Shown: positions 27,485 through 62,764, numbered from the whole stretch's first letter. The stretch: DNA of 63,864 nucleotides, filler included, from Folioceros fuciformis (GCA_049999805.1; 6 parts of 6 records of this genome joined end to end with filler, not necessarily neighbours in it); one strand, 5' to 3'. The notes: a model not told the origin generated them from the sequence alone. A program made the numbers and translations.

Positions 27485-27584
27485 NNNNNNNNNNNNNNNN
27501 NNNNNNNNNNNNNNNNNNNNNNNNNNNNTTAATTAATTAANNNNNNNNNNNNNNNNNNNNNNNNNNNNNNNNNNNNNNNNNNNN
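27485..27584. other. Artificial contig linker (N44-TTAATTAATTAA-N44); the 12-mer also occurs at 45858, 50080, 58153 and 62709
   Basis: Identical six-frame-stop 12-mer centred in 100-bp N blocks five times. Confidence 0.92.
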
Positions 27585-41960: not shown

Positions 41961-44896
41961 TGTTGAAATAACACCACAAGCTAAAATGGACTCCACAGTA
42001 CCTTACTTATGGTGCACAGGATGCTACATATATAGCCTTCAGGCGGGGCAAACCTCGATAAGGTAAGCCTTAGTCTCGAGGGTGCAATATCCTAGTATAT
42101 CCTGATATATCCTGATAACACTTAGGTGATAGATAACTACGAGTTCAATATGGGATAATCTACACTATCCTAAGTGTTGTATGCTCTTAATAACAATTCA
42201 GTTAGAGCTTGATTTCTAACACTCCCCCTCAAGCTCAGACTATTTGTAACACTCCAAGTAGTTCACGAAAGTGTAAGAACTTATCTCTACCTAGTGACTT
42301 AGTAAAGATATTTGCTACCTGGTCTTCAGTCTTCACGTGCCGAAGATCTATCTTCTTAGATAATATTGCTTCCTTGATGAAATGATAATGTACTTCTATG
42401 TGCTTCGAACGAGCATGAAACACAGGATTAGTAGCCAACCTCATGCTACTCATGTTGTCACAGTAGATTGTAACCTTGCTGTTCACTATATTTCCAAGAT
42501 CATGTAGCAACTTCTGCGACTAAGCTGCTTCACAGGCTGCCATTGCAGCTCCTCGATACTCTGCTTCTGTTCTTGACAAAGCAACTGTCGGTTGTTTCTT
42601 GCTTTTGCCAGCTGATCATACTACATCCCAGACTGAATGCATATGCACTGGTTGATCTTCTATCATACGCACAACCAACCCAATCAGCATCTGTATATCC
42701 TGTCAGTTCAAGATGCTTCCTATGCTCATAGAGCAATCCCAACTCAGTAGTTCCTTTCACATATCTCATGATTCTTCTAACTACATCCAAGTGCGGTTTC
42801 CTTGGGTTTTGCATGAATTGACTAATCAGTCCCACTGCATAACTTAAGTTAGGACGTGTGATAGTCAAGTAGATCAAACTTCTGACCATCTGTCGATACA
42901 TAGTCACATTTTCCAGCTCAGCTCCTACATCCATTTGCAGCTTGACATTCTGCTCCAATGGTGTATCCATCGCTTTGTAATCTGCCATGCCATACTTCTA
43001 CAACATATCCTTAGCATATTGTTTTTGGAATAGCCAGATTCCTTGAGGTGTAGACACAACCTCAATTCCTAAGAAGTATCTGAGTTAACCAAGATCCTTC
43101 ACCTTGAACTCTTTTTGCAGATTCGCCTTGACATGTGCAATACCATCTGCATCATCTCCTGTGATGATCAGGTCGTCAACATAAATGACAAGACACACTT
43201 GTCCTACCTTGGTCTGTTTTACAAACAGACTGTGATCTGCATCTCCAATCACAAACCCTCGCTCCTTCAAATAGCTTGTGATACGAGCATTCCATGCTCT
43301 AGGCGCCTGTTTGAGTCCATACAATGCCTTCTTCAGTTTGCAGACGTATGTTGGAAACTTAGGATAAACATAGCCTTCAGGCTATTCCACGTACACTTCC
43401 TCCTGCAACTCACCATTCAAGAAGGCATTCTTGACATCCATTTGCCATAACTTCCATCCTTTAGCTACTGCTAATGCTATGATTGTCCTTATAGTTGTCA
43501 TCTTGGCTATTGGACTAAAGCTTTCCTCATAATCAAGACCATACTGTTGTGCATATCCCTTTGCAACCAACCTGGCCTCGTAACGCTCCAGCGGTCCATC
43601 TAACTTGAACTTCAGCTTGTACACCCACTTAGAACCAATAGAAACCTTGCCATCAGGCAATTGAACCAAATCCCACGTTCCGTTCTCAACTAATGCTGAG
43701 TATTCTTCATCCATGGCTTAACACCACTTATCATCTGTCACTGCCTCAGCAAACTTGGTTGGCTCTTTACAAGCTGTGACCCTTGTCATATACGCATAAT
43801 GTTGCGCATTGTAGCTTGTATAGGTGTACCTGTCAATGGGTTTCCTAACCCTCTCAGATCTCCTTGGTCTTGGTTCATTTTGAACCTGCCTTGCATATTG
43901 TTGCTCCTTAGCACCTGGCGTTTCCACAGACGGAATGTCAAACTCACTGTCAGCGCTCTCACTACTTGAGGATTCATATCCCTCATTTCCAGTTTTGCTG
44001 CTTTCTACTCTCCCCCTCATTGACATATCCGGGTCAGTGGTCTTCAGTTCACCATTCTGCAGTCTTCCAGACCATGGATTCATCATTGGTGATCCACCAT
44101 TGGTCACATCCTCACTCTTTGCTGGAGTATTCTTAACAGTACTCTCCCCTGTGGGTTTGTCATAGGGTAGTGCAACTGAGTTGCTATACCAGGAGGCTAA
44201 CTCATCAAATACCACATCCCTGCTTATCAGGATCTCATGTGTGGATGGCACATAACACTTATATGCCTTCCTATTTCGTGCATACCCCAGAAAAACACTC
44301 TTCACTGCTTTAGGATCCAGCTTCCTACGCTTCTCATCAAGTACATGCACATATGCAATGCACCCAAACACTTTCAAGTGCCTAACATCCGGCTTATAGC
44401 CATACAGTCTCTCAATTGGTGTAGCATCATGAATTCCTGCCGTAGGAGTTCAATTCAGTACATACACTGCTATCATCACTGCTTCTGCCCAATAATCATT
44501 AGTTAAACACTTCTCATTCAGCATTGCCCTTGTTGTTTCCATGACTATCCTATTCTTCCTCTCTGCAACACCATTCTGCTGTGGTGTGTATCTGCAAGTC
44601 AGCAGTTGTCTTCGTATACCATGATTTGCAAGATACCTGTCAAACTCATTTGAGACATATTCTCCCCCTCCATCTGATCTTAGACAAGAGATGGAGCAAC
44701 TGAATTCATTTTCAGCATGCTTTTTGAAGTCCTTGAAAGACTCAAACACTTCATCCTTATGCTTCAGTATGTACAGCCACGTGTACCTACTGAAATCATC
44801 AATGAAGGAGACATAGTAGTGAGCTCCTCCAAACGATGCATTATGTGAAGGACCCCATACATCAAAGTGTATCAATTGCAAAGGTCTCCAATTCAT
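41961..44896 (-). mobile_element. Ty1/copia INT-RT-RNaseH with PPT and 3' LTR (41961-42221)
   Basis: HFDVWGP, LRSDGGGEY, QMDVKNAFL, YVDD, YTDADW, HARSKHIEVHYHF; PPT ttgagggggag; LTR termini TGTT...AACA. Confidence 0.93.
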
Positions 44897-45813: not shown

Positions 45814-45913
45814 NNNNNNNNNNNNNNNNNNNNNNNNNNNNNNNNNNNNNNNNNNNNTTAATTAATTAANNNNNNNNNNNNNNNNNNNNNNNNNNNNNNN
45901 NNNNNNNNNNNNN

Positions 45914-48900
45914 AACAGTTAAGTAGGTTACTCAAGTTACTAATTGATCAATCGTCGTTATAACTAAATACACTTTGTATTTAAATCGTATCATTAATGC
46001 TCAATCATCAATTCCAAGGGATTCTTGTCCCGCTACATGGTATCAGAGCCCCAGGCTCGTCCCCTCATGGCTTCGCCGCTGCTTCCCGTCACTGGCGCTG
46101 CACACTTCACAAGGATGGGTCAGCAGCAATTGAAGAATCCAGCAGACCAGAGATCCTAATCAGGAAAACATGGCAAGGCGACGCACCTCCGTGACTTTCA
46201 CTTCAATACACCGCGCTCCCACTCCTGAAGGGAGATCTTTCATCAACATAGTAGAGAAGCAAATCCACGACGAGCGACTCCGCCGCCGGTGGACTACGCC
46301 AACTACCAGCACACCTATCAGCACTCCAGCCACGGCCGCCCCGATCAAGCCCATCTCTCACTCACACGAATGCACGTACACCGCTTCCTCCCTAGCCAAC
46401 GTACCTGCCACACCTAAGTACTTGAGAATTCAATTGGACTGCATAGAGTCACAACTCGGCCCTGCATATCGCAATCAATCAGATTCCCTTCTACATACAA
46501 ATGTAAATCACGCACTCCTCACTTTTTTTGCTAGTCCTAATTCGAGGCCCCGCAGCCTTTTATGCCCAAATTTGATCCGCTCTCCCTTCATACCACAAAG
46601 CCCCCTACAAAGAAACTTGCAATTAAATCAGCCATGGCCTCTTATGTCCCTAATCCCACTTCTACGGTGATTAACACCACCAAAGTTGAATTTAGAGACT
46701 GTGATCACTTCAACGGAAGTGATTACGATATCTGGCAAATGAGAATCACAGCCATGTTAGAAGAACATGATCTAATGTCAATCACATACGGCACTTTGCC
46801 ACGACCCTCGCTCACCTCTACCACACCAGCTACCCTTGACCAGATAGCTGCATGGGACAAGAAAGACAAGAGGGCTCGCAACATCCTGATATCTGCGATT
46901 GACAAAACAATGCTACAACACACCCAAGGTCAGACGACCTCACATGATGTATGGAAAAGCTTTTAATGACATGTTCCAGGCACAGAGTTCAATGTCTCTA
47001 ATCAATGCCACAAGACAATTCTACTCACTGAGGATGAAGGACAGTGAGAGCGTCGAGCAACACGTAAACATGTTGCGGTCCCTGCGAGCGAAGCTCTCCA
47101 ACAGCGACACCGTCATCACCAAACTTCAGGCAGTAGGCGCAAACGCACCACCAGCCTACACCTTTTCAGACGTTATTTCAGCATTGCTCGAGAAAGAATC
47201 CAGCAGAATCGGCACCTCACGCAATAATGTTGGGGTAAGCCACGCCCTCTTCACTTCCAGAGGTCGAGGAAATAGGCGTGGTAAAGGACGAGGAGGTTTC
47301 CCCAAGCGAAGAGGCCCACCTTCTCCAAGCTTCTCGGGCTTCCCAAGTCGACAATTTTCACAAAACAGATCATTTGACAGAAGATCAGCCAAACGAGCAT
47401 GTAACTGGTGCAAAAATCTTGGTCACTACCAAAGTGAATGCCGAAAGAAGCAAGCAGGCGAGCCACGCAGAGAAGCTCCCAGAAACGAGTCTCACCTTAC
47501 CACAACTACCAAGTCGTCGTCAGCTAGTTCCATCTTAGCAATCTGCCTCACCCTTACCAAAACAGACACATGTCGTTGGTTCTTAGACTCTGGAGCCACC
47601 ACACACATATGTAGCTATCAAGACATGTTTACCTCCTACCACCCGGTCCTCTCCGACCAACACATCCTCTTTGGAGATGATAGTGCACTACCCATTCAAG
47701 GTTCAGGAGAAGTCCAACTGCGTCTTTCTACTGGAGAGCTCCTCACCATCAACAAAGTCCTCCACGTACTTGCAATGACCAAGAACTTGCTGGCAATCCG
47801 TAAGTTAGCCACAAAACATGACCTCACCATCACGTTCCAAGGAAACCACTGCACCATCTGTCACAACAAAGACCCTGAGAAAATAGCCCTAGCTCACGGA
47901 CTTCCCTTCAATGATCTTTACCTCTTAAACATCCAATCTACATCACTCTTGGTAGATAGCAGTCCACCAACATCCTCAAACAAGTCCTTGTTACGGCACT
48001 GCCGTGCAAGCCATATGAACTCTAGATACCTCAACATGCTTGCAAACCCCACCATGTATAAGGATCTTGTCAAGCTCAAAGTTCACAAGGACTTCTTCTG
48101 CAAGATATGTCAGTATACCAAGTTAAACCAATCACCTTTCAAAGACCCTTCTCCTACCCGTGCCAGACGACTGCTTAAGACAATCCACTCCGATATATGT
48201 GGACCCATGAGCACCGACTCCTTTGGAGGCCACAGCTATTTCATTACGTTCCTGGACGAATGGAGCAGATACTGCCATGTCTACTCCTTGAAGCGAAAGG
48301 ACGAGGCCCTTTCATGTTTCCAAGACTTTCTTCTCACTGCTGAGTGGCAAACAGGATTTCAAGTAACCACCCTGCGAACAGACAACAGGGATGAATACAT
48401 CAGCAATGCCTTCCAAAGATTCTGCCGCTCTAAGGGCATTCAACGACAGAACACGGTACCTTACACTCCCTCACAGAACCCTTTCGCTGAACGACTGAAT
48501 CGTTCCTTGTTGGAAGTCTTGAGGTCCCTCCTCAAACTTGTAGGCTTAACAAAAGCATACTAGGCAGAAGTTGTGTTCACTTCCACTTACCTGAAAAATA
48601 GGCTTCCAACTAAGGAACTCCCCTGCACTACTCCATTCGAGAGGTGGAGCGGCCACAAACCTAGGGTATCCCACCTCCATATTTTCGGTAGTCCTACCTT
48701 TGCCCACATTGCTGCAAAAACCGGAAGGAAGTGGGATGATACAAGTCGAAAGATGTTGTTCATAGGATACTTGGACCAAGTCAAAGCCTACCGGCTCTTT
48801 GATCCCCACTCTTGAGAGGTAATCCATTCCCGCATTGTTCATTTCCACAAAACCCATCTCCTCAACACACTCCTCCAGTCCTCCCTCACTTCCACTCCCT

Positions 48901-49684
48901 TGCCTGCACCTAGCATTTTGGGCCATTCTACCACTGAATCCCCCCTTGAGTTTGAAGGGGCCACAGACTACGATAACATCACCTCACTGCAAACTCAAAA
49001 GGTGATCCAACAAGAAGTACTTCAGCAACCTGCACCACCAACCTAACAACCACTAGCCCAATAGCCTGTACAGCAGCAACCAGACCTCTCTCACTCCACA
49101 TCATCTCCAGACTCCCAAATCCCAAAGGTTACTGTCCCGGAGATAATACCCCAAGTGTACCATCCCGAACCCACTTTGCCTGCACCTCCAGAAGCTATTA
49201 GAAGATCCACCAGAAACAAACCTACACGAAGTGAATGGAAAGAGCCACCATACACTCCTGGTGATACCCTCACAGGTCCCATGGAGCGCCAGGCATCCTC
49301 CATCTCTCAACCTCACACTGACTAGTTGGAAGATGTTGCACACCAAGCACTATCGGCCATTGAAATGTAGGGAGTACCCCTATCCATAGACGAGGCACTT
49401 GCTTCACCAGAATGGACAGCTGCAGTACAATCAGAGTATGACTCCCTAATGAGCAACAAAGCGTGGAAGTTGGTGGACTTACCGAAAGGAAGAACACCTA
49501 TCTCCTGCAAGTGGACATTCAGGCGCAAACTCAATCCAGACAGAACAGTAGCAAGACATAAGGCCAGACTTGTTGCAAGAGGCTTCACTCAGATCCCTGG
49601 CTTCGACTACGAGGAAACCAGACTTTTTAGTCCAATCGTGAAGTCGACCTCCATTAGAATTCCTCTTGCCTTTGTAGCACACCA
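45914..49684 (+). mobile_element. Ty1/copia element: LTR end, PBS 46038-46050, upstream ORF, gag-PR-INT-RT (degenerate); RT interrupted at 49685
   Basis: ctaCA-tggtatcagagcc; FNGSDYDIWQ; CNWCKNLGHYQSEC; WFLDSGATTH; IHSDICGP; ARLVARGFTQIPGFDY. Confidence 0.92.
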
Positions 49685-49990
49685 TGTGGGGGAAAATATC
49701 ACACCCAGGGGTGCTGCAAGGTCCACACAAACCCTCTTTGTCGTTACAGCTCAGGGATTCAATCCCAAAGGAATGATTTGTGCTAAATAACACGGGTTTT
49801 CTCACAAAGTCAGTTACTATCCAAGGTCAGACTTTACCTACCTTTCGCTCCTCTACCTGCCAATCAGCTACCACTACCTCCGTTGCAGCTCAGCTACCCG
49901 GGCCTTGTACTACCTTACGGACTCACTCAACTACCGGGGGGGGGGTCTTTTCAACTACCCCAGGGGTACTTCTACTGCCTCAGCTCTTCT
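49685..49990 (-). mobile_element. Second copy of the LTR 3' end seen at 40160
   Basis: tgtgg(a/g)ggaaaatat...gcaaggtccacacaaaccctct...gggattcaatcccaa(a/g)ggaatgatttgtgc(c/t)aaataacac shared with 40160-40275. Confidence 0.8.
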
Positions 49991-50135
49991 GATAGGTTAT
50001 ATTTAATTTTACCTTTTATTAGTTCAGGTTAGGGTNNNNNNNNNNNNNNNNNNNNNNNNNNNNNNNNNNNNNNNNNNNNTTAATTAATTAANNNNNNNNN
50101 NNNNNNNNNNNNNNNNNNNNNNNNNNNNNNNNNNN

Positions 50136-53100
50136 TCAGTTGGCTTGTGCACAACACGAGTAGCAAGTGAAAGGATGCCTTCGCGTTCAACCTCGCAGCT
50201 GAGTAAGCACATCCTAGACCGTAATGCGACTCCGGCAGGCCTGGTTCGTGCTCGAGTGCGCGCTCGTAGATTCCAATGGCCTCCATCGTCCGCCCGCTGC
50301 TGAGGGTCTGGTTTCCCAGACTGCATTGTTGATACCCGTTCACTCTTCGCTTCACGGCCTCGATTTTCTCCAGAGTGGTCTTCACAATTTTGGCATACCT
50401 GTAAGACCTTCGGACGGGTGTCCTGCATTGCGGGCTTAACACACACACATCCAATGGCCTGTCAAGCCATCCTCTCCGCGGGTTAGGAAATTCGAGAAAG
50501 CTGGAAGGGAGAATCGGATGCTTACCATTGCCTCGGTCTGATAGGTTTTGCAGAGGAAGACTCTCCCGCAGCATCTTCCCGGTCCATCCATCTGTCCAGG
50601 CCTGTTACCCCGAAGATATGCTTGCACTCGTGCAGCTGCACGAGCCTTTCCTTTCCTTTCAAGTCTGCCAATCGCGTTTTGGAGATGAAGTCGATTGTGT
50701 CCCCGTTGCAAATTTTGCACTTTTTGGGGCACAACTCCCCGCAGATCCCACTGCATCGGTGTCTTCATCCTGGCAATCTCCTGTTGCAACGCCGGTTGCA
50801 GCGAGGTCTCGTGCATGTCTCAAAGCACAGAAGGTTACATCGGTGATGCCTGCATTTCCAAGCACACCTTTCCCTGCACGGGATGCATTCCTCCCCACAT
50901 TTCAATGTGCAAGTACCGTGCACGCATTTCTTCTGACACGGCCGCTCGCAAGGAGGGCAGAAATCGGTGCAGGAAGCGGGGCACGCATGGCCGCATGGAA
51001 GCACCAGTTCGCATGGTCTGTGGCAAGGCACATGCTGCGATCCCTGCTTGCACAGTCCACAGCTTCCTGCACAGGAACAGGAACCGTTTGCACAGCTGAA
51101 TGCAAAAGGCTGACAAGCCAAGCAGAGAGAGTCTATGAGATGGTGCAGGTGTCAGAGGCGTACCTGCGCACTTGTGACCGCATCTTTCCAGTGTTTCTGT
51201 GCAAGGATTCCTGCAAACGATGCTCGCATCGTCTTCGTGGCAAGCATCCTCTTGGACGTGGCCACACCGTAAAGTTCTTGTCACTGGCTTCAGGCATCTT
51301 TCCACACAGGGCACACTACACTTATTAGAACAAGGATGCCCACAGCCTAAAATCTTTTCGCACCTTGCCTCGCACACGGCTGCGTCTACGGGCTGAGAGC
51401 ATGGCACTGCTTGTTCATGGCCACACCTAGGCAGCTGCCTTTTCATGAGAACTGTGCAGGGCGGGCAGCTAGATCCATGGTGGCATATCCTTGAACAAGT
51501 ATGCTCACAATTTTCATGCTGCTTTGAGCAGCTTTCAGAGCAGACGGCTTGCTCATGGTCGCTAGGGTGGCACCGTCGAGGGCAATCATGGCCACATTGT
51601 AACTGGAACCCGCATGGTTGGGCACAACCCCCATCCTCAACTTGTCTGAAATCAACATCCCGTGCCACTTTGGTCTCTCTCTCAGGATGATTCTGACAAC
51701 ATAGGATCAGCTGAGGGCCCAGCAGGCCGGACTGTCGGAGGGTTCCGGTGATTGTTCCCCAAAGTTCGCTTTTCCCAGCAAGAAAATCTGCATTTCCGAA
51801 GATAAACATTCCATATTTTGCTCTGGAAAGGGCAACACAGACTCTGTTGTGTATGATGAGGAACCCTATTCCACCAGTCCCATCATGCTTGTTATTCCGA
51901 ACAAGGGAAAGAAGAATGATTTTGCTCTCCTCTCCCTGAAAACCATCCACACTGCTGACTCTGGGGAAATCCTCTTCCTGGTTAAGATATTTCGTGCCTG
52001 CTGCAACTTTTCTTGGTAGGCAGGCAGCTTGGAGTCGCACATTCAAGAGACGCCTAATCTCTTCCACCTGAACATCAAAAGAGGTTGTAAGGGACCCGCA
52101 CCCAGCTTACTGAACCAGGAGGATGAAATCCGATTCACCTCTTCTAACAAGGAATGTAAATCCACGGTGACAAGTTTACCTGGCCGGCGTACATGCTCAG
52201 AATTGTAATGTCCTGCACAGAATAGCAGTCCTGCTTCAAAAGGTAGATACACACTTCCACAATCAGTTTCGCCTCCTCTTTGTTCACTTTAGATCCACTT
52301 TCTGAATCCCTGACGGAGCTCTCCTCCTCCTGGTGATCTACAAAGTAGACATTGTGTTTCGTACCACGAACATCGGGGAACTGGGTAACAGAAGGATCGT
52401 CTCTGAGGTGAGGGTAGATTGGCAGTAGCAGGGATGATATGGTTGGTCTCATTCGTCTTTGAACCTCCAGAGACTTGTATTCCACACCACCGGCAACCAA
52501 TCTCTCGAAGAGAGAAACATCCAGTTTGTGGTCCACAGCCAACCTGTGAACTTCTACTTTAGGCCGTAGCTGCTGATGATCCCCAATGAGGATGAGATGC
52601 TTGGTGTAACGACTCAAACAAGCCAGAATATGGCTTTCCAGAACCTCGGTTGCTTCTTCCACTATTACAATCTCTGGCTTCAGGGAGGCCAAAGTATCAC
52701 GCATTCGGGCAGCTCCAGTGGTAGTCATACCCACGACCTTCGCTTGTCTAAGTAGGCGTAGATGCACCTCGTTTTCCACTTGTAGTCTGGCTTTGCAGGC
52801 CTCTTCGTACTCGGCGGATAATCTCGTAATTTCCAGCTCGGCTTTCCTGTTGATGGCCGTAATCCAACACTGGTGCAGCCTCAGTCTGAAAGACCGACGC
52901 AATTTCCAAACGTCACCAACATTGATGAAGTCGTCCTCAAGTGTTATTTGTTCACATTGGTCTGAACTCCCGTTTCCTGGCTCATCATCTGTTGTCTTGA
53001 TATCTAACAGTTGCCGCCCCTCTACAGGTGCAGTGTCCTCTTCGAAACTGGAGTCTGCAAGAAGGAAACCATAGCAAACATGTCACCCGAATAGATAAGA

Positions 53101-55358
53101 ACGGTACGCACGTATTGAGCAACCCAGTGGTCTAGCTGACCTGCAGTCTCTGCATGCTCGTCGTCATAAGGATCGTCATCTGAAGACGCTATTGAAATGT
53201 CATCATTTGGATCGTGTTTCTGCAGAGCGTGTTCTTCATCTTCATCATCGTTGACGTTCCGAAGACGTCGAATGAATTCTTGGAAGCGTAGGTCGCCCTT
53301 GATGTCTCCTTAGCACTGTTAGGCTTTACCGTTTTTTTGGGACAGGCACTTTCATCAGCCCCAGAAAGCCAGATCCGCACTACTTCATCGTCAGAAACCT
53401 CTGAATCATGATCCTCTGCCAGATTAAGTGTCCGGCTCCTCCAGAGGAATAGAGCATCTATCTCTTGTGGAGTTGCAATTTCATGTAGAGCATATTTGTT
53501 TACGAGCGTCTGCAATAAGAGATGGCGTAACGGTCAAAAACATCGACACCCTACAGCCCCAACAGTAGGCATGCATTCAGGCAAACAAGCTCGCACTAAC
53601 TGCATACGTTGTCAAGTTTCTGACTCAGGCTTACCAAGCGAAGAAAGTGCACATATTTTCTTTGGATCTCTCGCATTGGTTGCTGAGCCGCATCCACAGC
53701 CACTCTGAGGGCTTGATGCAGGTCATGATCCAAAGATTTTTTTTCTCGCTGCTGCCGCCGAAGGTGCGACAGGCTCCTGAGCTTCAGTCCTTCATGTTTG
53801 CTCTGACCTCCTAAGCGAATCAGGCTCTTCTCATGCTCATAGATGCCTTCTAGGAACTGATCCAGCGCGTGATTCGTATAGCAAACCACCAGAATTGGGC
53901 CAGATACATTTTGCAGACTACGTGTACTACCAGCTGCACCTCTCCTAATGGGCTCGCAGATTTGCTGCTTTACATTGGCTAGCAGCGTCCTGACTAACAA
54001 CAGGCCCACGAATGTTTTTCCTGTGCCCGGAGGTCCTTGAATCAGGGCAAGCTCCTTGGTGAGTGCATACTTGAGGACCTCTTTCTGGCTCTCGGCCAGA
54101 GTACCCATCTCCCTGTCTGGCCAGGTTCCCAGTACATCAAATGCATCTCGGCCCCCCTCCCCCACCATCTGAGGAAACACGCTGCTGAAATTATATACCC
54201 CTTTCTGAGGCCTTCTCGCTAAATAGCTAGGTGGATCAATCCTTTCCTCCAAAGCAATCAAATGCTTGGCGAAAGCTAGCTGTTGGCACATGTCTTCGGT
54301 CTGTAGGCTCTTGAGAACATTAGAATATGGTTCAAAAAAGGCAGGTGATTCCACCATGACAAAGCTCTGTCTTGGTCCAAACCATGGGAAAAGTGACTGC
54401 TCTGATGTTCTTTCAGTATTTGTTGAGCTTTTTGAAGCTTCTGGGCTTGGTAGAATGCGGATGGTAAGGACACCCCTTGCAAGGTCCGTCACATTACGGA
54501 TAGCCACCAAGCCCCAGAAATGTGTGGCAAAGTTATCCTCTGAGAAACATAGTAATGAACCAAGCATGAACCGTTTGGATGTTTCCCACGAAGTGCATCC
54601 ACCAACAGAATTTTTGAAGTAGACCTGACAGGAGAACAGTTTCACATAACCTAGTTATCACGCCAGAGCATTTAGTTGGGAACGCGAGACCGTGAGAACA
54701 GTCAAGAATTACTGCATTTTTTACCTGATAGCCAATGGATTCTCTGCCGAATACGAAGCCGGGATGAATGCGAACATTCACGTGTATGCCCTCCTGATCG
54801 TGGATGGACCAGGAAGACCTGATGCCAACACCAGGCGGGTGCACGTTGCGGTTTCGGTAGTTGCAGGTTTTCTCTCTCAGAGGCTCAATGTAATCTTCAC
54901 GTAAAAGCTTGAAATTTGTCTCCAGGTACTCGGAGACAGAAGCATACCGCCGGCCAACAAGATTAATAGGAAGAGATCTTTGCAGGATATTAGAAACCAC
55001 CATCTCAGCCTTGGAAGGCAGGATAGGAAGGTGACGATAGTCTTCTCCCTGCGCGACAGACATCAAAAGTGTTCATCAGCACGGCATGTTTGCAACCTAC
55101 TAAAGCACCACGAAAATTGCAGAGGCCATCAAAATTTTCCTCAAATTCCTCCAGCAGACTGACCAGAATTGTGAAGTTAGGAGCTTGTTCGGAGTCAAGA
55201 TCTTGGATGTTGCTGGCTGGGGACTGCTGATGATTAGGATCAATCCAGGAACAGAGCGGGGTTACAGAAACGTTTGATACAATGGCTTGCGATGACTCTG
55301 CACCTCGTTCAAACAGCCCAACGTCAAGCAAATTCAAGATCACGGCATTCAATGTCAA
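50136..55358 (-). CDS. ZNFX1: ZNFX1-like protein: UPF1-like SF1 helicase, NF-X1-type Zn fingers, RING-like region and C-terminal TPR; carries an in-frame TGA and a probable frameshift (possible pseudogene); 3' end cut by gap
   Basis: FKLLREDY, KRFMLGSLLCFS.DNF, QGPPGTGKT, CYTNHALDQFLE, VEEATEVLE, LIGDHQQLRP, SLFERL, QRRMRP, VDGFQGEE, NRVCVALSRAK, repeated CGH.C fingers, C.HIF...GLD.WM, CPQCRTPV...RY. Confidence 0.85.
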
Positions 55359-56952
55359 AGATTAGATTGATTGGGCACACTATATCCCTCACAAATTGGA
55401 CGAAACAAAATGCGTGGAGGAACAAGGATCTCAACCGTTCATCCAGCACAGCACTACGATCACGTCCCAATGGCCCACCTAGGGAGCGTTGCGCACCTGA
55501 CTGAACCTGTCTGCTCCTGAGAGCCTGAGTGTCGCAGGAGCTCCGTGATGTCGAGGCTTCCCCAAAGCTGTCCGGCTTATTTGAGTTCCTCCTCCCCTCT
55601 TTTTCCTTTTTCGTCTCACCTCGTTCATCCACCCTACCACCATCACGTCCCATTCGTCCAATGAGAAAACTTTGCACGCCGGCTGACTGGACCTGGTTCC
55701 ACCTGTGAGCCTGAGGCTCCTCCTTCTTCACACCTGGTTCAGCCAGCGTATCACCATGTCGTCCCAATCGCCCGAAGAGGGAACTTTGGATGCCTGACTG
55801 AACCAGTCTGCTCCTGCGAGCCCGATTCTGTGCTACATCGCAGGAGCTTGACGACGTTGACGCGCCAATGCCATCCAGCTTCACAGATTTCTTCTTCTTG
55901 ACACCCGGAACATCCAGCACACGACCGTCAAGTCCCGACAGCCTACTTAGGGAGCTCTGAGCGCATGACTGAATCGGTGCGCTCGTTTGAGCCCCACTTG
56001 CAGAAGTGTTGTTAGAAATTCGGGAAGACGAGGAGCCAATGCTGTCCTCTCTAGTGGAGTCTTCCTCCGTCTTCTTCTTCTTCTTCTTCTCCTTCACCGA
56101 GGTGCCACTACTTTCAACTCTTCCCGAGCATCGTCCAGTCAAGGCACAAATGCTGTCCAGCACAGTTGACTTCTGCTTCTTCTTTCCGTTCTCGCCCGGT
56201 TCATCCAGCGTTCCACCATAGCGTCCCAATCGCCTACCGAGGAAACTTTGCGCGCCTGACTGAAGTTGTCTGCTCCTGCAAGTCGGAGTTGGTGCAACCA
56301 CGCAGGAGCTTGGAGATGCTGACGCGCCAATTCCCTTCAGCTTACCTGTTATCTTCTTCTTCTTCGCCTTCTTCTTAGCACCCGGGTCATCCAACACACC
56401 ACCATTACGCCCCGACAACCCACCGAGGGAGCTTGGCGCGCTTGACTGAACCTGTGCGCTGGTTTGAGCCCCAATTGCTTCAATTTTGTAGGAGCTTCGA
56501 GAAGTCGAGGCCTCGCCAACGCTGTCCTTTTCAGTAGAATCTAACTTTGTCTTCTTCGGCTTCTTCTTCGTCACCGAGGTGCCAATTCTTTCAACCATTT
56601 CCAAGCATCGTCCATCCTCTGGCAGGTCCGGACACTGATAGGAAACCGAGATCTTCGGAGCGCGTCCAAGGCCAACGAGCTGCCCAATCGTCTGTTGCAG
56701 AGTTACACTGCTGCAGATAACCAAGTCTCGACCGTCTCTGTCTTCGCACTCGAGCTTCACCGCACGGTCGCCAGCACCCACCGGGATGCGAAGATGGGTC
56801 GGCACGAGGCCCGGAATGCTCTCAACCAGTTTACGCCTCAGCTCCGACAAGATGTCTCGAGAAGCTAGATCCACCACCACAGCTGTGGTGCCCATGACCG
56901 TCCCCTTCTTCTTGTGCACAACCTCCAGCCTCACATCCATTCGCGGCTCCAT
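55324..56952 (-). CDS. ORF with PB1-like N-terminus and Lys/Ser/Gly-rich internal repeats; probable 5' exon of the ZNFX1-like gene or a separate gene
   Basis: Open frame of >540 codons; KLECEDRDGRDLVICSSVTLQQTI resembles the PB1 acidic motif; six copies of QSGAQSSLxGRLGRxGGxLDEPG. Confidence 0.55.
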   Translation of the reverse strand: MEPRMDVRLEVVHKKKGTVMGTTAVVVDLASRDILSELRRKLVESIPGLVPTHLRIPVGAGDRAVKLECEDRDGRDLVICSSVTLQQTIGQLVGLGRAPKISVSYQCPDLPEDGRCLEMVERIGTSVTKKKPKKTKLDSTEKDSVGEASTSRSSYKIEAIGAQTSAQVQSSAPSSLGGLSGRNGGVLDDPGAKKKAKKKKITGKLKGIGASASPSSCVVAPTPTCRSRQLQSGAQSFLGRRLGRYGGTLDEPGENGKKKQKSTVLDSICALTGRCSGRVESSGTSVKEKKKKKKTEEDSTREDSIGSSSSRISNNTSASGAQTSAPIQSCAQSSLSRLSGLDGRVLDVPGVKKKKSVKLDGIGASTSSSSCDVAQNRARRSRLVQSGIQSSLFGRLGRHGDTLAEPGVKKEEPQAHRWNQVQSAGVQSFLIGRMGRDGGRVDERGETKKEKEGRRNSNKPDSFGEASTSRSSCDTQALRSRQVQSGAQRSLGGPLGRDRSAVLDERLRSLFLHAFCFVQFVRDIVCPINLIFDIECRDLEFA

Positions 56953-58208
56953 CGTAGAACAAGGCTCCAAGATCGATTGTGAGCTTCCTCTCCCGACTCT
57001 GGACAACAAGCGCACTGCACTTCCCGAGCTGCTGAAAAGAGGCGCGCGGCGGCTACCTCATCATCGGAGGATTAAGCCATTTAGTTACTCTACCGGTGGT
57101 TTTAACTGGAGGCGATGCGGGTAGTGAAAGTAGGTGGAGCACAGGCCACAGCTTCACTCCCAACAGGCCAACCCAAGGCATCCCGTACCCTGTACTTAGC
57201 CGCCGTTGCCCTCTCATCACATCAAATCCCGCGCGCTTTTCTAGCGGCAAGGACGCAAGATTTGGTGTCTGCATCACAAAGAAGACGCAGAACAGGCATT
57301 CGGTCCCCGGCGCTTCGCCTTTATTGTTTGAAATGAAACAGACGACGGGGCCTGGGCCTGGTTGGCGCTGGGCTCGCTCATAATCTCGTAAGTGCCGGGC
57401 CCCGCCGTCATGGGTGCCACGGAGCCCAGTAGGGAAACATGGACATGACTGTCCACACCGCAACTTCAAGGCCAACAACAATTTGGACGAAGCTAACGTG
57501 AATGAACGAGCATAGTACAGTCGTCCCTCAATAAATGTGACCTGTTGTGACCTGATGGGACTGGGGCATTGGGTAACTTTACGGAGGTCTAACACTTCAG
57601 AATTCAGTCTTTATTTTGGAGAATAAAATATTTAAAATTTATTTAAGTATATTTATATATCATGATATATTATATATAAGTTTTCATATTTTAAATATAT
57701 ATTGAAAATAATTATTTTTAAATAAATATATATTACCCTTATAAATAATTTAATAGTATGTTATGAGTTAGTATAATAGTATATAAATAACTCTAATAAT
57801 AATTAAAAATATTTATAGGGTTGGATTGCAGTGATTAGACGTATCTATTTTCATAAAACGTGTAACATCTAATATTTATAGAAAAATAATATTTAACCTT
57901 ACTCCTCAAATCGGGAGTATCCAAACTCGTAATACTCGTAGAGGTATAACATTTATGGAGGTCATATTTATAAAGAGTTGACTATACATATATAATAAGC
58001 TTGGTCTTCGACTTTCATATATTGTAGCTTTTCTTTAACAGAGAGTTTTTATTGCTCTACAACGTGCGTTGGCTAATGCCATATACAGGATGATAATGTT
58101 GGTAGGGGNNNNNNNNNNNNNNNNNNNNNNNNNNNNNNNNNNNNNNNNNNNNTTAATTAATTAANNNNNNNNNNNNNNNNNNNNNNNNNNNNNNNNNNNN
58201 NNNNNNNN

Positions 58209-59860
58209 ACAGCATGGACACGAAGGATGTGGTGACATGGACGGCCCTGATCGCTGGGTATGCACAGCAAGGACTCGGCCAAGAGGCACTTGTTGTGTAT
58301 GGACAAATGGAGGAGGCGGGCCTCGTGGTGGCTAACCATGTTACTTTTGCGTGCCTTTTGAAGGCGTGTGCAAGCACTGGTGCCTTGCAGAAGGGCAGGG
58401 AGCTTCACTCACAGATTGTCCACAGAGGTGTGCTGGATGATGTAGTGGTGGGAAACGGCCTGGTGGACATGTATGCAAAATGTGGTGAGCTGGAATATGC
58501 ACGCCAGGTTTTTGAGAGCATGGCCTCGAAGGATGTGGTGACATGGACGGCCTTTATTGCTGGGTATGCACAGCAAGGACTCGGCCAAGAGGCGCTTGTT
58601 GTGTATGGACAGATGGAGGAGGCAGGCCTCGTTTTGGCTAATGATGTTACTTTTGCTTGCCTTCTGAAGGCGTGTGCAAGCACTGGTGCCTTNNNNNNNN
58701 NNGTTGTGTATGGACAGATGGAGGAGGCAGGCCTCGTTTTGGCTAATGATGTTACTTTTGCTTGCCTTCTGAAGGCGTGTGCAAGCACTGGTGCCTTGCA
58801 GAAGGGCAGGAAGCTGCATTCACAGATTGTAGAGAGAGAACTGCTGGATGATATAGTGGTGGGAAACAGCCTGGTGGACATGTATGCAAAATGTGGTGAG
58901 GTGGAAGATGCACGCCAGGTTTTTGACAGGATGGCCACTAAAGATGTGGTGACATGGAATGCCCTGATCGCTGGGTATGGTGGTTGTGATGAAGGTCGCA
59001 AGGCGCTAGCTTGTTTTGAGGAGATGTTAGCTGCTGGTGTTCAGCCTGACGATTCTACTTTCACTTGCGTTCTAGTAGCATGCAGTCATGGGGGTCTGGT
59101 CCAGGAGGGTCGCAAGCTCTTTGATTCCATGGCTGAAGAGCATGGTGTCATACCTACTGTTGAGCATCACACCTGCATGATTGATCTTCTTGGGCGTGCT
59201 GGCCAATTAGATGAGGCAGAGAGGATGCTATCATCATGTGAGGGCGAAAGTGAGGTGGTGGGTTTGACATCTTTGTTGAATGCCTGCAAAAGTCACGGAG
59301 ATCTAGAGAGGGCTGTGTGGTGTTTTGAAAGCATTGTTAGGCTGGACCCCCAGGAGGCACCTGCCTATGTTCTCATGGCCAATGCCTATGCAGATGCAGG
59401 CAGGTGGACCGATGTAGACAGGATTGAAACACAGAGAAAGGCAGCAGGAGCTAAGAAGAAGCCAGCAGTGGCAACCATTGAGGTGAATAAGGAGGTACAC
59501 AGATTTCTGGTGGGAGAAAGGAGAAAGGATATTGCGCTTAAGTTAGAGAGCACGAATGCGCGTGTGAAGCAGGAAGGAGGCCACGTACCTCACACAAAGT
59601 TGGTGTTGAAGCCACTGAGTGAGAAGGAAAAGGAAGACGTGCTTTGTGGGCATGCTGAGAAGCTGGCTCTGGCGTTTGGTCTGTTGAACACTCCGAATGG
59701 GACACCTCTGATGGTAACCAAGAATCTACGCATGTGCAGTGATTGCCACAGCTCCACGGCGATCATGTCGAGGCTTGAGCAGAGAGACATTGTTGTGAGG
59801 GATGGGTACCGTGTGCATCGATTCGCAAATGGTTGTTGCAGTTGTAAGGGTCGACCATGA
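58209..59860 (+). CDS. PLS PPR plus E plus DYW:KP (GRP) protein, C-terminal half
   Basis: P-L-S triplets, KKKPAVATIEV, HAEKLA, CSDCH, CSCKGRP*; close paralogue of 12-956. Confidence 0.92.
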
Positions 59861-60685: not shown

Positions 60686-60982
60686 CACTTAACGTGGACA
60701 AGCCTTAGATGAAATTCTTGTTTTTTCTTATGGCGGCTGACAAGCAATTAACTGTTTTGTACATCTAAACTGAAACATAAAGTTACTACCCAATATCCGC
60801 AGCTCCAACCGCTCCAACAGCCCACAGGCACTATAGGACGGCTCACCCCTTCAGGCAGGACGGCTCACGTTCACCCCTTCAGGCTGCTGTGCTCGTACAT
60901 ACATACGTACAGTGTACCCGGCCGGGAATCTGCCTAGACGAGACTTTTGTGAGAGTCAACTTCGGACAGCAGTCCCTGAAAG

Positions 60983-62664
60983 ATGGCCACAGTATGGCAA
61001 CCGGACCTGTTGTTGACCCAACAAATTGGAATTGGTGTGTGTACAACGACTCTACCAGGAACCCCCGCTCTCCTCAGCTTCGGGAGTGAACCCTTTGCAA
61101 ACAAAGCCTCCAGCTGCAGCATTGTCAGGAACCCAGCACTTCCACCTCCGAGCACGAGAACGTGTGTGGGCAGGGACGGGTTTTCCGACGATGCTGGTAG
61201 TTGCCAGGAGCAGGAGGAGCACTTGTGGCAACAACTTTTTCTGGACCCTACCATGTGGTGGGATAACAGACGAGACAAGAAGAGCTCCCGTTCCCCTCAC
61301 TTCCGGCGTAAGGGGTCCGGCGAGGTGCTGTGGTTGGACAACAGGTTTAAGCCAGCTTGGGTTGATGAGCAGCTCGTCTCCTTGGATATGCAGATGGGTC
61401 TCGGTTCCTCTGCTTCCAACTTGAGCTCTCCAGATTATCCTGAACCTGGAAGGCGTACAGGTGGTGAAATGGGCTCCAGGGGCAGCAGTGTAAGAAACCC
61501 AGCACTTCCACATCCAATGGGCCATGGAGTCTCTTCTTTCGAGTGCAGCTCTGTGTATAAGCGTGGATCTGGCAGGCGTGCAGAATTGGAAACGGGCGTC
61601 GTAAGTGCTGCAACCGTGAGCATGTTATGTCATCAGGGGAAGCTTTCTGAGGCAGTTAGAGCCCTGGAATCTCTGGTGCAGTCAGGCTCTGGCGTTTCTC
61701 AGTCTCTGTTTTACACAGTGTTAAAACTCTGTACAGCTAAGAAGGATTTGGTGGTGGGGCGACGAGTTCATGATCTCACAGTCAAACTTGGGTACGAGTC
61801 GAATGCATATTTGGGGAACCATATCTTGCGCATGTATGCATGTGGAGGTAGGCTAAAGGAGGCGATGGATGTGTTCAACAGGGTAGGGAAACCGGATGTC
61901 TTCATGTGGTTTTCCATAATCTCTGCACATGCTAAGCACGGGAAGCCGAAGGAGGCCATACAACTGTACCATGAAATGCGTAGGTCAGAAGTGAAGGCGG
62001 ATGGTTATGTCTTTGTAGCCGCCCTTCAAGCTTGTGCATTTGCTGCCGACCTAGAATCTGGCAGAACAGTGCACCGCGACGTGTTGCGCAGTGGCTTCCG
62101 TACTGACTTGTTTGTTAACAACTGCTTGGTGGACATGTATGCAAAATGTGGCCGAATGAAAGATGCACGCCAGGTTTTTGACAGCATGGACACGAAGGAT
62201 GTGGTGACATGGACGGCCCTGATCGCTGGGTATGCACAGCAAGGACTCGGCCAAGAGGCACTTGTTGTGTATGGACAAATGGAGGAGGCGGGCCTCGTGG
62301 TGGCTAACCATGTTACTTTTGCGTGCCTTTTGAAGGCGTGTGCAAGCACTGGTGCCTTGCAGAAGGGCAGGGAGCTTCACTCACAGATTGTCCACAGAGG
62401 TGTGCTGGATGATGTAGTGGTGGGAAACGGCCTGGTGGACATGTATGCAAAATGTGGTGAGCTGGAATATGCACGCCAGGTTTTTGAGAGCATGGCCTCG
62501 AAGGATGTGGTGACATGGACGGCCTTTATTGCTGGGTATGCACAGCAAGGACTCGGCCAAGAGGCGCTTGTTGTGTATGGACAGATGGAGGAGGCAGGCC
62601 TCGTTTTGGCTAATGATGTTACTTTTGCTTGCCTTCTGAAGGCGTGTGCAAGCACTGGTGCCTT
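60983..62664 (+). CDS. PLS PPR protein N-terminal half with an OSB-type (PDF-like) motif; continues into the sequence at 58209
   Basis: LWQQLFLDPTMWWDNRRDKKSSRSPHFRRKGSGEVLWLD...PAWVDEQL, then PPR motifs; 62181-62664 matches 58209-58692. Confidence 0.88.
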
Positions 62665-62764
62665 NNNNNNNNNNNNNNNNNNNNNNNNNNNNNNNNNNNN
62701 NNNNNNNNTTAATTAATTAANNNNNNNNNNNNNNNNNNNNNNNNNNNNNNNNNNNNNNNNNNNN

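What the first reader, a model, noticed from the sequence alone, without database searches (positions are those of the whole stretch)
50136..55358. ZNFX1-like RNA helicase/E3 in a land plant, with a TPR tail
Seen: the full ZNFX1 order (N-terminal LLRED block, SF1 motifs, NF-X1 finger array, C.HIF..GLD.WM/CPxC RING-like unit), spliceosomal introns, and then a TPR (EAIGIYERALEHEPGLPESHYGLGCAY). Known: ZNFX1/Hrr1 act in dsRNA sensing and RdRP-linked heritable silencing in animals and fungi, and I do not recall a flowering-plant orthologue. Inference: an uncharacterised RNA-silencing or antiviral module in seed-free plants, either retained ancestrally or gained horizontally, with a novel TPR fusion.
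Basis: partly seen in the sequence, partly recalled or inferred. Interest (0 to 1): 0.75.

Follow-up and report, generated by a model that had tools for sequence, protein, structure and literature searches.

The report
Plant ZNFX1 helicase-ligase gene copy
This is a real, intron-containing land-plant copy of ZNFX1, a known RNA helicase with built-in ubiquitin-ligase parts; relatives in liverworts, lycophytes, ferns and conifers share its TPR-like segment, and this copy is cut by the contig end and carries a premature stop.

Summary
On the minus strand of 50136-55048 lies a spliced ZNFX1-family gene. It has the LLRED block, the 1B barrel (Pfam ZNFX1 domain), an SF1 helicase core, seven NF-X1 finger cores, a one-zinc RING-like (Miz-like) unit and the start of a TPR-like segment.

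Four corrections:
- The window is several contigs joined by artificial linkers. The gene sits alone on a 7973-base contig (50136-58108) whose end cuts off about the last 165 residues, including the true RZ finger.
- The TPR-like segment is not a new fusion. It is the linker between the Miz-like and RZ modules and is shared by liverwort, lycophyte, fern and gymnosperm homologues.
- This copy has an in-frame TGA at a zinc-binding Cys codon (50767-50765). A sister copy or allele in the same sample, and spliced RNA contigs, read TGC.
- The usual N-terminal armadillo and CCCH parts are not detectable. An orphan 542-residue ORF lies upstream instead.

In the tree the gene falls inside a streptophyte clade whose order follows the species tree, so it is neither a contaminant nor a UPF1/SEN1 helicase. 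No angiosperm, moss or hornwort homologue appeared in three searches.

Verdict: a new member of a known family, functionally unstudied in plants.

The parts
50036..50135 (.). Artificial contig joint (N44-TTAATTAATTAA-N44). The gene's contig begins at 50136, so the 3' end of the gene is cut off.
   Evidence: Five such linkers lie in the window (27529, 45858, 50080, 58153, 62709).
50136..50434 (-). Last exon held. It carries the CPQC end of the Miz-like unit, a conserved helix (RYAKIVK..IEAVK) and the first TPR-like repeats (EAIGIYERALEHEPGLPESHYGLGCAY). It runs off the contig end.
   Evidence: tblastn to P0007 residues 1565-1658 of 1823. Sub-threshold Pfam TPR hits. An RNA(?) contig of 414 letters lies with only 283 of them on 50136-50418 and runs past the end.
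50435..50525 (-). Intron, 91 bases, GT..AG.
   Evidence: Predicted. A contig of run X3 skips exactly 50435-50525 (table 5).
50526..51066 (-). Exon with NF-X1 finger cores 5-7 and the first part of the Miz-like unit (CKIC ... ECKHIFGVTGLDRWM).
   Evidence: It aligns at 43% identity to Callorhinchus ZNFX1 1517-1659.
50765..50767 (-). In-frame TGA replacing the first Cys of the seventh finger core (LPG*RHRC against PKCGHRC in the liverwort homologue).
   Evidence: At 50765 a contig of X1 (depth 25.3 of 25.3) and one of X3 (5.03 of 5.03) read the base that gives TGC. A contig of X2 (depth 13.8) keeps TGA.
51067..51163 (-). Intron, 97 bases, GT..AG.
   Evidence: Predicted. A contig of X3 skips 97 bases here (table 5).
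51164..52067 (-). Exon with the end of the second RecA lobe (VDGFQGEE, NRVCVALSRAK) and NF-X1 finger cores 1-4.
   Evidence: Pfam AAA_12. It aligns to human ZNFX1 9q9z_A 1267-1451, E 9e-53.
52068..52179 (-). Intron, 112 bases, GT..AG.
   Evidence: It is the best of the frame-compatible pairs by fit to nine homologues. There was no RNA cover.
52180..53054 (-). Exon with the helicase core: deviant Walker B VEEATE, GDHQQLRP, QRRMRP.
   Evidence: Pfam AAA_11/AAA_12. PDB ZNFX1 E 5.7e-54. Motif places.
53055..53634 (-). Poorly conserved acidic insertion (position of insertion 1C). It is modelled as two small exons (53509-53330, 53219-53141) and three introns (53634-53510, 53329-53220, 53140-53055).
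   Evidence: The splice sites were chosen by consensus and size only. The conserved VVRIWL motif is kept. There is no RNA evidence.
53635..54624 (-). Exon with the 1B beta-barrel (Pfam ZNFX1 domain) and Walker A GPPGTGKT.
   Evidence: PF25396, E 2.9e-14; AAA_11, E 1.4e-12. tblastn at 46% identity to P0007 359-648.
54625..54724 (-). Intron, 100 bases, GT..AG.
54725..55048 (-). First exon with detectable homology (GEDYRHLPILPS ... YLETNFKLLREDYIEPLRE). The upstream boundary is uncertain.
   Evidence: tblastn hits of many homologues begin at 55042-55054. An acceptor is possible at 55049 and an ATG at about 55063 (and my reading).
55327..56952 (-). Orphan ORF of 542 residues from its first ATG: a possible PB1-like head, then six copies of a Q-S-L-x-G-R-L-G-R-x-G-G-x-L-D-E-P-G motif, most of them followed by Lys runs. 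It is either the gene's own 5' exon or a separate gene.
   Evidence: No homologue at E<=0.001 among 1.84 billion representatives. No Pfam hit. The PB1 lead is weak.

Best explanation
The locus is a nuclear, spliced land-plant member of the ZNFX1 family, and one of several closely related copies or alleles in this organism.

Shown from sequence:
- A UPF1-like SF1 RNA-helicase core with Walker A and the family's deviant Walker B (EEA).
- The ZNFX1-specific 1B barrel.
- A variable acidic insertion where human ZNFX1 has its auto-inhibitory insertion 1C.
- A stalk of seven NF-X1 finger cores.
- A Miz-like unit with only the site-II zinc ligands (C-x-H ... C-P-x-C).
- The beginning of a TPR-like helical linker.

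Inferred:
- From colinear homologues, the linker leads to an RZ finger that lies beyond the contig end.
- From human ZNFX1, the intact protein would bind and translocate on RNA and couple that to ubiquitin transfer by its two non-canonical E3 modules.
- From worm and fungal relatives, a role in RNA surveillance, antiviral defence or RdRP-linked small-RNA amplification is plausible but untested in any plant.

This particular copy has a nonsense codon just before the E3 part. It also lacks the usual armadillo and CCCH head. It may therefore be a null allele or a decaying or remodelled paralogue, while a sister copy with Cys at that codon is transcribed and spliced.
For: - Domains: Pfam ZNFX1 domain, AAA_11 and AAA_12.
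- Solved structures: human ZNFX1 9q9z matches at E 5.7e-54 (core) and 9e-53 (RecA2 plus fingers), against 1e-10 to 1e-5 for UPF1, aquarius and SEN1.
- Colinearity: tblastn aligns the contig to residues 236-1658 of the 1823-residue liverwort protein P0007, and likewise to Ginkgo, Cryptomeria, Selaginella and Adiantum.
- Gene model: 1397 residues with a single stop.
- Constraint on the core: 189 of 206 columns invariant in 13 streptophyte homologues are kept; leave-one-out for those 13 gives 88.8-99.5%.
- Tree of 49 rows and 1166 columns: streptophytes 100, land plants 99, the window inside them.
- Nearest relatives: ranks 1-21 of the core search are 18 named streptophyte proteins and 3 unnamed ones that fall in the same clade.
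- Miz-like unit: aligns to Callorhinchus ZNFX1 at about 1563-1632. That matches the human Miz domain at 1566-1632, described with one zinc in site II (10.1101/2025.10.14.682297, section 12).
- RNA: contigs of another study skip two predicted introns and include pieces with no differences from the window.
- Constraint among copies: of the 40 listed differences, 21 are synonymous and 19 are not.
- Composition: GC3 is 0.52, like the PPR genes on neighbouring contigs (0.51-0.55).
Against: - The copy in the window has an in-frame TGA at a zinc-ligand Cys, supported by a contig of run X2. As written it would end before the Miz-like, TPR-like and RZ parts.
- No armadillo, CCCH or clear PB1 homology lies upstream.
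- The RZ finger cannot be seen.
- The end branch in the tree is long (0.64 against a median of 0.23).
- Five of the seven introns and the whole 5' part have no RNA support.
- Run X3 is only guessed to be RNA by its record.
- No helicase, RNA-binding or ligase activity of any plant member has been tested, so the function is inferred across kingdoms.
Confidence: 0.8

Rival explanations
1. The window's copy is a dead or dying pseudogene: a 5'-remodelled duplicate with a nonsense mutation. Any function would reside only in its paralogues.
For: - In-frame TGA at 50767-50765, kept by a contig of X2 at depth 13.8.
- No armadillo or CCCH head; homology starts abruptly at about 55054.
- Long end branch of 0.64.
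- Several copies exist: depth is 35-47 over 50136-51731 against about 10 elsewhere in X1, and 31 of 74 laid X1 pieces are only 90-95% alike.
Against: - There is only one disabling change in 1397 codons, and no frameshift is needed.
- 189 of 206 invariant columns are kept, within the range of bona fide homologues.
- The frame stays open and conserved for 179 codons after the stop.
- Differences among copies are half synonymous.
- RNA(?) pieces identical to the window exist at 50136-50418, 50542-50621 and 51232-51389.
Confidence: 0.3
2. The contig comes from a fungal, animal or protist contaminant of the plant sample.
For: - The contig is short (7973 bases) and unlinked to any plant gene, because the window is a concatenation of contigs.
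- ZNFX1 is best known from animals and fungi.
Against: - It nests within streptophytes (100) and land plants (99), away from animals (99) and Mucoromycota (100).
- Its best identities of 57-58% are to Selaginella and ferns.
- GC3 and codon use resemble the DYW-PPR genes on neighbouring contigs (r 0.73).
- Exact pieces occur in runs of two studies with the same species label.
Confidence: 0.03
3. It is another SF1 helicase (UPF1, SEN1/MAA3, SDE3 or aquarius type) that merely resembles ZNFX1.
For: The helicase core is UPF1-like, and UPF1, aquarius and SEN1 are the next PDB matches.
Against: - The E-value gap to ZNFX1 is 40 orders of magnitude or more.
- The ZNFX1-specific 1B domain PF25396 is present.
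- NF-X1 fingers and the Miz-like unit follow the core in ZNFX1 order.
- Every one of the 120 listed relatives is a ZNFX1-type protein by Pfam make-up or by name.
Confidence: 0.01
4. The plant ZNFX1 clade was gained horizontally (for example from fungi or animals) rather than inherited.
For: Patchy distribution: no moss, hornwort or angiosperm names appear in the three hit lists.
Against: - The clade's internal order follows the species tree: zygnematophyte alga, then liverworts, then the lycophyte/fern/gymnosperm set.
- It is a sister group to animals plus fungi plus protists, not nested inside any of them (unrooted tree).
- Its members have spliceosomal introns and plant-like heads (PB1, CCCH).
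Confidence: 0.05

Closest known systems
Human ZNFX1 (PDB 9q9z; Naydenova et al. 2025, bioRxiv 10.1101/2025.10.14.682297)
   Same: - SF1 helicase with the 1B barrel and an insertion at the 1C position.
- Deviant Walker B (EEA).
- NF-X1 finger stalk directly after the helicase.
- Miz-like one-zinc E3 unit at the matching place.
- Colinear plant homologues end in an RZ finger.
   Different: - No detectable armadillo head here.
- The segment between the Miz-like unit and the RZ finger scores as TPR in land plants, but not in the bird and fish proteins tested.
- Plant heads carry PB1 and/or CCCH.
- The RZ finger is not on the contig.
- This copy has a stop codon.
- No plant function is known.
Annotated streptophyte 'NFX1-type zinc finger-containing protein 1' proteins (Selaginella moellendorffii, Calypogeia fissa, Riccia, Ceratopteris richardii, Adiantum, Ginkgo, Cryptomeria japonica, Taxus, Mesotaenium endlicherianum)
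   Same: - Same order of parts, including the TPR-like linker.
- 45-58% identity over the core.
- One clade in the tree.
- Multi-copy in each genome sampled.
   Different: - This copy lacks their armadillo and CCCH head and has an orphan repeat-rich ORF upstream.
- Long branch in the tree.
- Nonsense codon.
- Truncated by the assembly.
C. elegans ZNFX-1, S. pombe Hrr1, N. crassa SAD-3
   Same: They belong to the same helicase family. Wan et al. call Hrr1 and SAD-3 homologues of ZNFX-1 and link all three to small-RNA silencing with Argonaute and RdRP (passages of 10.1101/220111).
   Different: - According to that preprint, the fungal orthologues lack the zinc-finger domain.
- According to Naydenova et al., the worm protein lacks the RZ domain.
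- None was compared directly here.
- A link to plant RDR or AGO proteins is untested.
RNF213 RZ finger
   Same: The RZ finger that ends the colinear plant homologues (Pfam PF20173, 78-82 bits) is the module shared by ZNFX1 and RNF213 (abstract of 10.1101/2025.10.14.682297).
   Different: It is not present on this contig, and RNF213 has no helicase or NF-X1 stalk.

Membership tests
ZNFX1 family | UPF1-like SF1 helicase core with Walker A and the deviant Walker B (EEAA in human) | tested here: met
   - GPPGTGKT, VEEATE, GDHQQLRP, VDGFQGEE and NRVCVALSRAK are present.
- Pfam AAA_11 and AAA_12.
- PDB ZNFX1 at E 5.7e-54.
- The Walker B statement comes from a passage of 10.1101/2025.10.14.682297.
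ZNFX1 family | ZNFX1-specific 1B beta-barrel (Pfam PF25396) | tested here: met
   53.4 bits against a cut-off of 27, E 2.9e-14, in 53596-54654.
ZNFX1 family | Array of NF-X1-type zinc fingers directly after the helicase | tested here: met
   - Six intact C-x-H-x-C-x3-C cores, plus a seventh whose first Cys codon is TGA.
- Alignment to 9q9z_A 1267-1451.
- No Pfam NF-X1 model scored at E<=0.01.
ZNFX1 family | Miz-like (SP-RING-like) unit with site-II zinc ligands only | tested here: met
   - C-K-H ... C-P-Q-C is conserved.
- 40-43% identity to bird and Callorhinchus ZNFX1 across about 1546-1697 and 1517-1659.
- The position matches human 1566-1632.
- The fold and zinc binding were not tested.
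ZNFX1 family | C-terminal RZ finger (Pfam PF20173) | not testable with these tools
   - The contig ends at 50136, about 165 residues before the end of colinear P0007.
- 7 of the 8 homologues scanned have it; Pilobolus does not.
ZNFX1 family | N-terminal armadillo-type domain (dimerisation interface in human) | tested here: not met
   - No tblastn hit lies upstream of about 55072 for any of the 120 relatives.
- hhalign of the two upstream ORFs against 13 streptophyte homologues gave probabilities of 1.5% and 0.1%.
ZNFX1 family | Groups with ZNFX1 proteins rather than other SF1 helicases | tested here: met
   - The tree places it inside the streptophyte ZNFX1 clade.
- PDB ranking.
- No UPF1 or SEN1 outgroup was included in the tree.
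ZNFX1 family | Open reading frame through the E3 part | tested here: not met
   TGA at 50767-50765 in the window and in an X2 contig. TGC in an X1 contig and an X3 contig.
TPR repeats (Pfam clan) | A TPR family scoring above its curated cut-off | tested here: not met
   - Window: best is TPR_11 at 20.7 bits against 26.8.
- The aligned stretch of P0007 (1603-1662) scores TPR_16 36.3 against 32.7.
- 4 of 4 land-plant homologues pass at least one TPR cut-off.
- Only about the first 70 residues of the segment lie on the contig.
PB1 domain (head of some streptophyte ZNFX1 proteins) | Detectable PB1 or beta-grasp similarity in the first about 110 residues of the upstream ORF | tested here: inconclusive
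   - Atlas feature score 0.86 to PB1 clusters, a lead only.
- hhalign to three PB1 heads: E 0.003, probability 10%.
- AlphaFold2 single-sequence model: pLDDT 48 with a beta-beta-alpha-beta-alpha-beta order.
- No Pfam hit.

The most novel reading that the evidence does not exclude
Non-flowering streptophytes keep a multi-copy ZNFX1 system. It combines an RNA helicase with two non-canonical ubiquitin-ligase modules, PB1/CCCH heads and a TPR-like linker. It would work as an RNA-sensing antiviral or RdRP-linked silencing pathway that flowering plants have lost. The window's copy, with an orphan head of six RLGR-type repeats in place of the armadillo dimerisation domain, would be a lineage-specific rewired paralogue rather than a wreck.
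Probability: 0.2. Interest if true: 0.65.

Novelty: new member of a known kind. Interest (0 to 1): 0.33.

Why it matters
ZNFX1 links RNA recognition to ubiquitin signalling in human innate immunity and to heritable small-RNA silencing in worms and fungi. Plants are the classic system for RNA silencing, yet their model species are flowering plants. No ZNFX1 homologue from a flowering plant turned up in my searches. A conserved, multi-copy ZNFX1 clade in a zygnematophyte alga, liverworts, lycophytes, ferns and gymnosperms therefore marks a possible RNA-defence component that angiosperm genetics could not have found. It could be tested in tractable species such as Ceratopteris or Riccia. The locus itself adds little beyond that: it is one truncated, stop-bearing copy.

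Tried and rejected
Searches and tests that led nowhere:
- Whole-genome search: no genome is held for this window.
- RNA holders: no listed holder is on record as RNA. X3 is only a guessed RNA run, and it gave no cover over 52530-54657 and 55190-57849, so the 5' part and five introns stay untested.
I repeated it with a faster alignment.
- The first Pfam call on other contigs failed on a wrong frame and was corrected.
- Upstream ORF A: no Pfam hit, no homologue among 1.84 billion representatives, no profile match to homologue heads.
- The AlphaFold2 model of ORF A's first 121 residues was too poor (pLDDT 48) for a fold search, so none was run.
- The rest of the gene was not found elsewhere in the window. 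None of 980 tblastn hits lies outside the contig.
- An AU test could not tell whether the window groups with liverworts or with vascular plants (p 0.42).
- Two literature searches were badly framed. With min_terms 2, none of the listed papers held ZNFX1.
- Earlier notes of this scan hold nothing for this genome and no plant ZNFX1.

Ideas considered and rejected:
- Selenocysteine at the TGA. Land plants lack that machinery (from my own knowledge), and sister copies read TGC.
- RNA editing of the stop. The change is A to C in the third codon position, and it sits on a contig with other differences, so it is another copy.
- A frameshift in the 53189-53309 overlap of two frames. Two consensus GT-AG introns of 110 and 86 bases join the frames without one.

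Full report
**What the window is.** The 63864-base window is not one piece of genome. Five copies of the spacer N44-TTAATTAATTAA-N44 divide it into separate contigs. The finding lies alone on a contig of 7973 bases, 50136-58108. The copia-type polyprotein at 46890-49790 and the DYW/E-type PPR genes at 18186-21206, 58211-59857 and 60980-62662 are on other contigs. They show that the assembly is of a land plant, but they give no linkage to this gene. No whole genome is held for the window.

**The observation.** All quoted features are on the minus strand.
- Pfam found the ZNFX1 domain (PF25396, 53.4 bits, cut-off 27) and AAA_11 in 53596-54654, AAA_11/AAA_12 in 52144-53082, and AAA_12 in 50835-52106.
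- In 50137-50604 it found only sub-threshold TPR matches (best 20.7 bits against 26.8).
- 4 of the 11 ORF translations had any hit.

I built a gene model from tblastn matches of the homologues and an enumeration of frame-compatible GT-AG pairs.
- Exons: 55048-54725, 54624-53635, 53509-53330, 53219-53141, 53054-52180, 52067-51164, 51066-50526 and 50434-50136.
- Introns: 100, 125, 110, 86, 112, 97 and 91 bases.
- The model reads 1397 residues with one in-frame stop.
- The three introns in the poorly conserved 53055-53634 stretch rest on splice consensus alone.

**Evidence from public runs.**
- Two DNA runs of one sample (X1, X2) hold 91% and 83% of the sampled words.
- A run of another study with the same species label (X3, guessed to be RNA) holds 10%.
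- X3 contigs skip exactly 50435-50525 (91 bases) and 97 bases at 51066-51163. Those are two of my seven predicted introns, with GT..AG ends on the minus strand. Spliced copies therefore exist. The other five introns had no X3 cover.
- X3 also has pieces with no difference from the window (50136-50418, 50542-50621, 51232-51389).
- One X3 contig of 414 letters lies with only 283 of them on the contig and runs past 50136, so the gene continues beyond the contig end.
- In X1, depth is 35-47 over 50136-51731 against about 10 further upstream, and 31 of 74 laid pieces are only 90-95% alike. Several related copies or alleles therefore exist.
- Of the 40 differences listed (55 more were not shown), 21 are synonymous and 19 are not. 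All seven in the Miz-like stretch 50627-50678 are synonymous. This points to purifying selection among the copies.

**The stop codon.** The TGA at 50767-50765 aligns to the first cysteine of the last NF-X1 finger core: LPG*RHRC here against PKCGHRC in the liverwort protein.
- At 50765 the only X1 contig (depth 25.3) and the only X3 contig (5.03) read the base that gives TGC (Cys).
- The X2 contig (depth 13.8) keeps TGA. It also carries six synonymous differences and a six-base deletion nearby.
- The stop is therefore real in some molecules of the sample and absent from others. It is specific to one copy or allele.
- As written, the protein would end before the Miz-like, TPR-like and RZ parts.
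- The frame after the stop stays open and conserved to the contig end.

**What family it is.**
- Against solved structures, the helicase exon matches human ZNFX1 (9q9z_A) at E 5.7e-54. UPF1/NAM7 and aquarius follow at about 1e-11 to 1e-12, and SEN1 at 1e-5.
- The next exon matches 9q9z_A residues 1267-1451 (end of the helicase and the first fingers) at E 9e-53.
- The motifs include the deviant Walker B VEEATE. Naydenova et al. describe EEAA as a ZNFX1 peculiarity (passage).
ECKHIFGVTGLDRWM ... CPQC) aligns at 40-43% identity to bird and Callorhinchus ZNFX1 around residues 1560-1632.
- That is the place of the human 'Miz' domain (1566-1632). It is a U-box/RING hybrid holding one zinc in site II, and it was shown to be an active ubiquitin ligase (section 12 of 10.1101/2025.10.14.682297).
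- The true RZ finger (CPNGH.Y..GECGG, Pfam PF20173) sits at the very end of the homologues. It is not on this contig.

**The TPR.** The contig is colinear with residues 236-1658 of the 1823-residue Calypogeia protein P0007. It is likewise colinear with Ginkgo, Cryptomeria, Selaginella and Adiantum proteins.
- In those proteins the TPR-like segment lies between the Miz-like unit and the RZ finger.
- Pfam TPR families pass their cut-offs in 4 of 4 land-plant homologues scanned.
- None is reported at E<=0.001 in the Mesotaenium, bird, fish and Pilobolus proteins scanned.
- The window still aligns to Mesotaenium through this segment at 39% identity.
- Many animal ZNFX1 proteins align over 97-99% of P0007 1520-1823 at about 30% identity.
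- The segment is therefore an old linker of the family that scores as TPR in land plants. It is neither a tail nor a fusion special to this gene.

**Relatives and phylogeny.**
- Three searches of the 5.8-billion-protein collection listed their best 120 each.
- With the helicase exon, ranks 1-21 are 18 named streptophyte proteins (Selaginella, Calypogeia, Riccia, Adiantum, Ceratopteris, Cryptomeria, Ginkgo, Taxus, Mesotaenium) and three unnamed ones. The best identity is 57-58%. Animals and Mucoromycota follow.
- No angiosperm, moss or hornwort name appears in any of the three lists. Only about a quarter of the proteins carry names and only 120 rows are shown, so this is 'not found', not 'absent'.
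- I made a maximum-likelihood tree (IQ-TREE quick search, LG+G4, 49 rows chosen by me from the hits, 1166 columns).
- It gives streptophytes 100, Mesotaenium sister to land plants 99, liverworts 100, animals 99 and Mucoromycota 100.
- The window joins the lycophyte/fern/gymnosperm set at 93 (unstarred), on a long end branch (0.64 against a median of 0.23).
- A clade of the window with liverworts is not rejected (AU p 0.42).
- The order inside the clade follows the species tree. This favours inheritance with losses over horizontal gain, and it rules out a fungal or animal contaminant.
- The tree has no UPF1 or SEN1 outgroup. That question rests on the PDB ranking and the domain order.
- The model keeps 189 of 206 columns that are invariant in 13 streptophyte homologues. 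Leaving out each homologue in turn gives 88.8-99.5%.

**The 5' end.**
- Homology to all 120 relatives begins at about 55054.
- The two upstream ORFs show no similarity to the armadillo, CCCH or PB1 heads of 13 streptophyte homologues (hhalign probabilities 1.5% and 0.1%).
- The larger ORF (55327-56952, 542 residues from its first ATG) has six copies of a Q-S-L-x-G-R-L-G-R-x-G-G-x-L-D-E-P-G motif, most of them followed by lysine runs.
- It has no homologue at E<=0.001 among 1.84 billion representative proteins.
- Its first 110 residues may be a PB1-like beta-grasp, as in the heads of Selaginella, Adiantum and Mesotaenium homologues. The evidence is weak: atlas score 0.86, hhalign E 0.003, AlphaFold2 pLDDT 48.
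- Whether this ORF is the gene's first exon, or a separate gene about 260 bases upstream of a possible start at about 55063, is open.

**How it most likely works.**
- Shown here: the sequence features of an RNA helicase of the ZNFX1 type, followed by a zinc-finger stalk and a Miz-like unit.
- Inferred from human ZNFX1 (abstract and sections 5 and 12 of 10.1101/2025.10.14.682297): RNA binding in a groove gated by insertion 1C, a rigid stalk, and ubiquitin transfer by the Miz-like and RZ modules.
- Inferred from other relatives: a part in antiviral sensing or in RdRP-linked small-RNA amplification. The sources are the title of Wang et al. 2019, seen in a reference list; passages of 10.1101/220111 on ZNFX-1, Hrr1 and SAD-3; and the listing of PMC9276528.
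- None of this has been tested in a plant.
- I found no paper on a land-plant ZNFX1. 'ZNFX1' with 'land plants' gave 0 papers. 'ZNFX1' with 'Arabidopsis' gave 25 papers, none on a plant homologue by title, and the one I opened only cites ZNFX1 in its reference list. 'NFX1-type zinc finger-containing' with 'plant' gave 23 papers, none on a land-plant gene by title. Subscription journals and supplements were not searched.

**Verdict.** This is a real gene of a known family, in a plant lineage where the family is annotated by pipelines but unstudied. The 'novel TPR fusion' is not, and this copy is truncated by the assembly, carries a stop codon and lacks the usual N-terminal head.

Noticed in passing
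window 27485-27584, 45814-45913, 50036-50135, 58109-58208, 62665-62764: The window is a concatenation of at least six contigs joined by N44-TTAATTAATTAA-N44 spacers. Neighbourhood across these points has no biological meaning.
   Followed up: yes
window 55327-56952 (-): An orphan 542-residue ORF lies here. It has six copies of a Q-S-L-x-G-R-L-G-R-x-G-G-x-L-D-E-P-G motif, most followed by Lys runs, and a possible PB1-like head. It has no homologue at E<=0.001 among 1.84 billion representatives.
   Followed up: partly
window 58211-59857 (+), 60980-62662 (+), 18186-21206 (-): Three intronless PLS-type PPR genes lie on other contigs. One has E motif plus DYW deaminase, one has the E motif, and one is cut by a contig end. 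They are typical organellar RNA-editing factors of land plants.
   Followed up: partly
window 27627-28361, 37234-39621, 43718-44449, 46890-49790: Fragments of copia-type LTR retrotransposons (RVT_2, integrase, gag, Pol beta-barrel, SH3-like) lie on three different contigs.
   Followed up: partly
window 57669-57882 and 57850-58108: DNA contigs of X1 and X2 skip 212 bases (57670-57881) upstream of the gene. Depth also rises to 118 at the contig end. A polymorphic insertion and a repeat probably lie here.
   Followed up: no
window 56058-56102: A trinucleotide run (TCT on the plus strand, 8.7 copies) encodes a lysine run in the upstream ORF. Laid contigs break here.
   Followed up: no
window 54879-54939: An X3 contig matches only these 60 bases (the YLETNFKLLREDYIEPLRE block) and diverges on both sides. 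It looks like the transcript of a more distant paralogue.
   Followed up: no
window 1641-2603 (-), 4024-4833 (+), 11635-12441 (+): On the first contig there are ORFs with a C3HC4 RING finger, a DUF751 domain and a ribosomal protein L35 domain.
   Followed up: no
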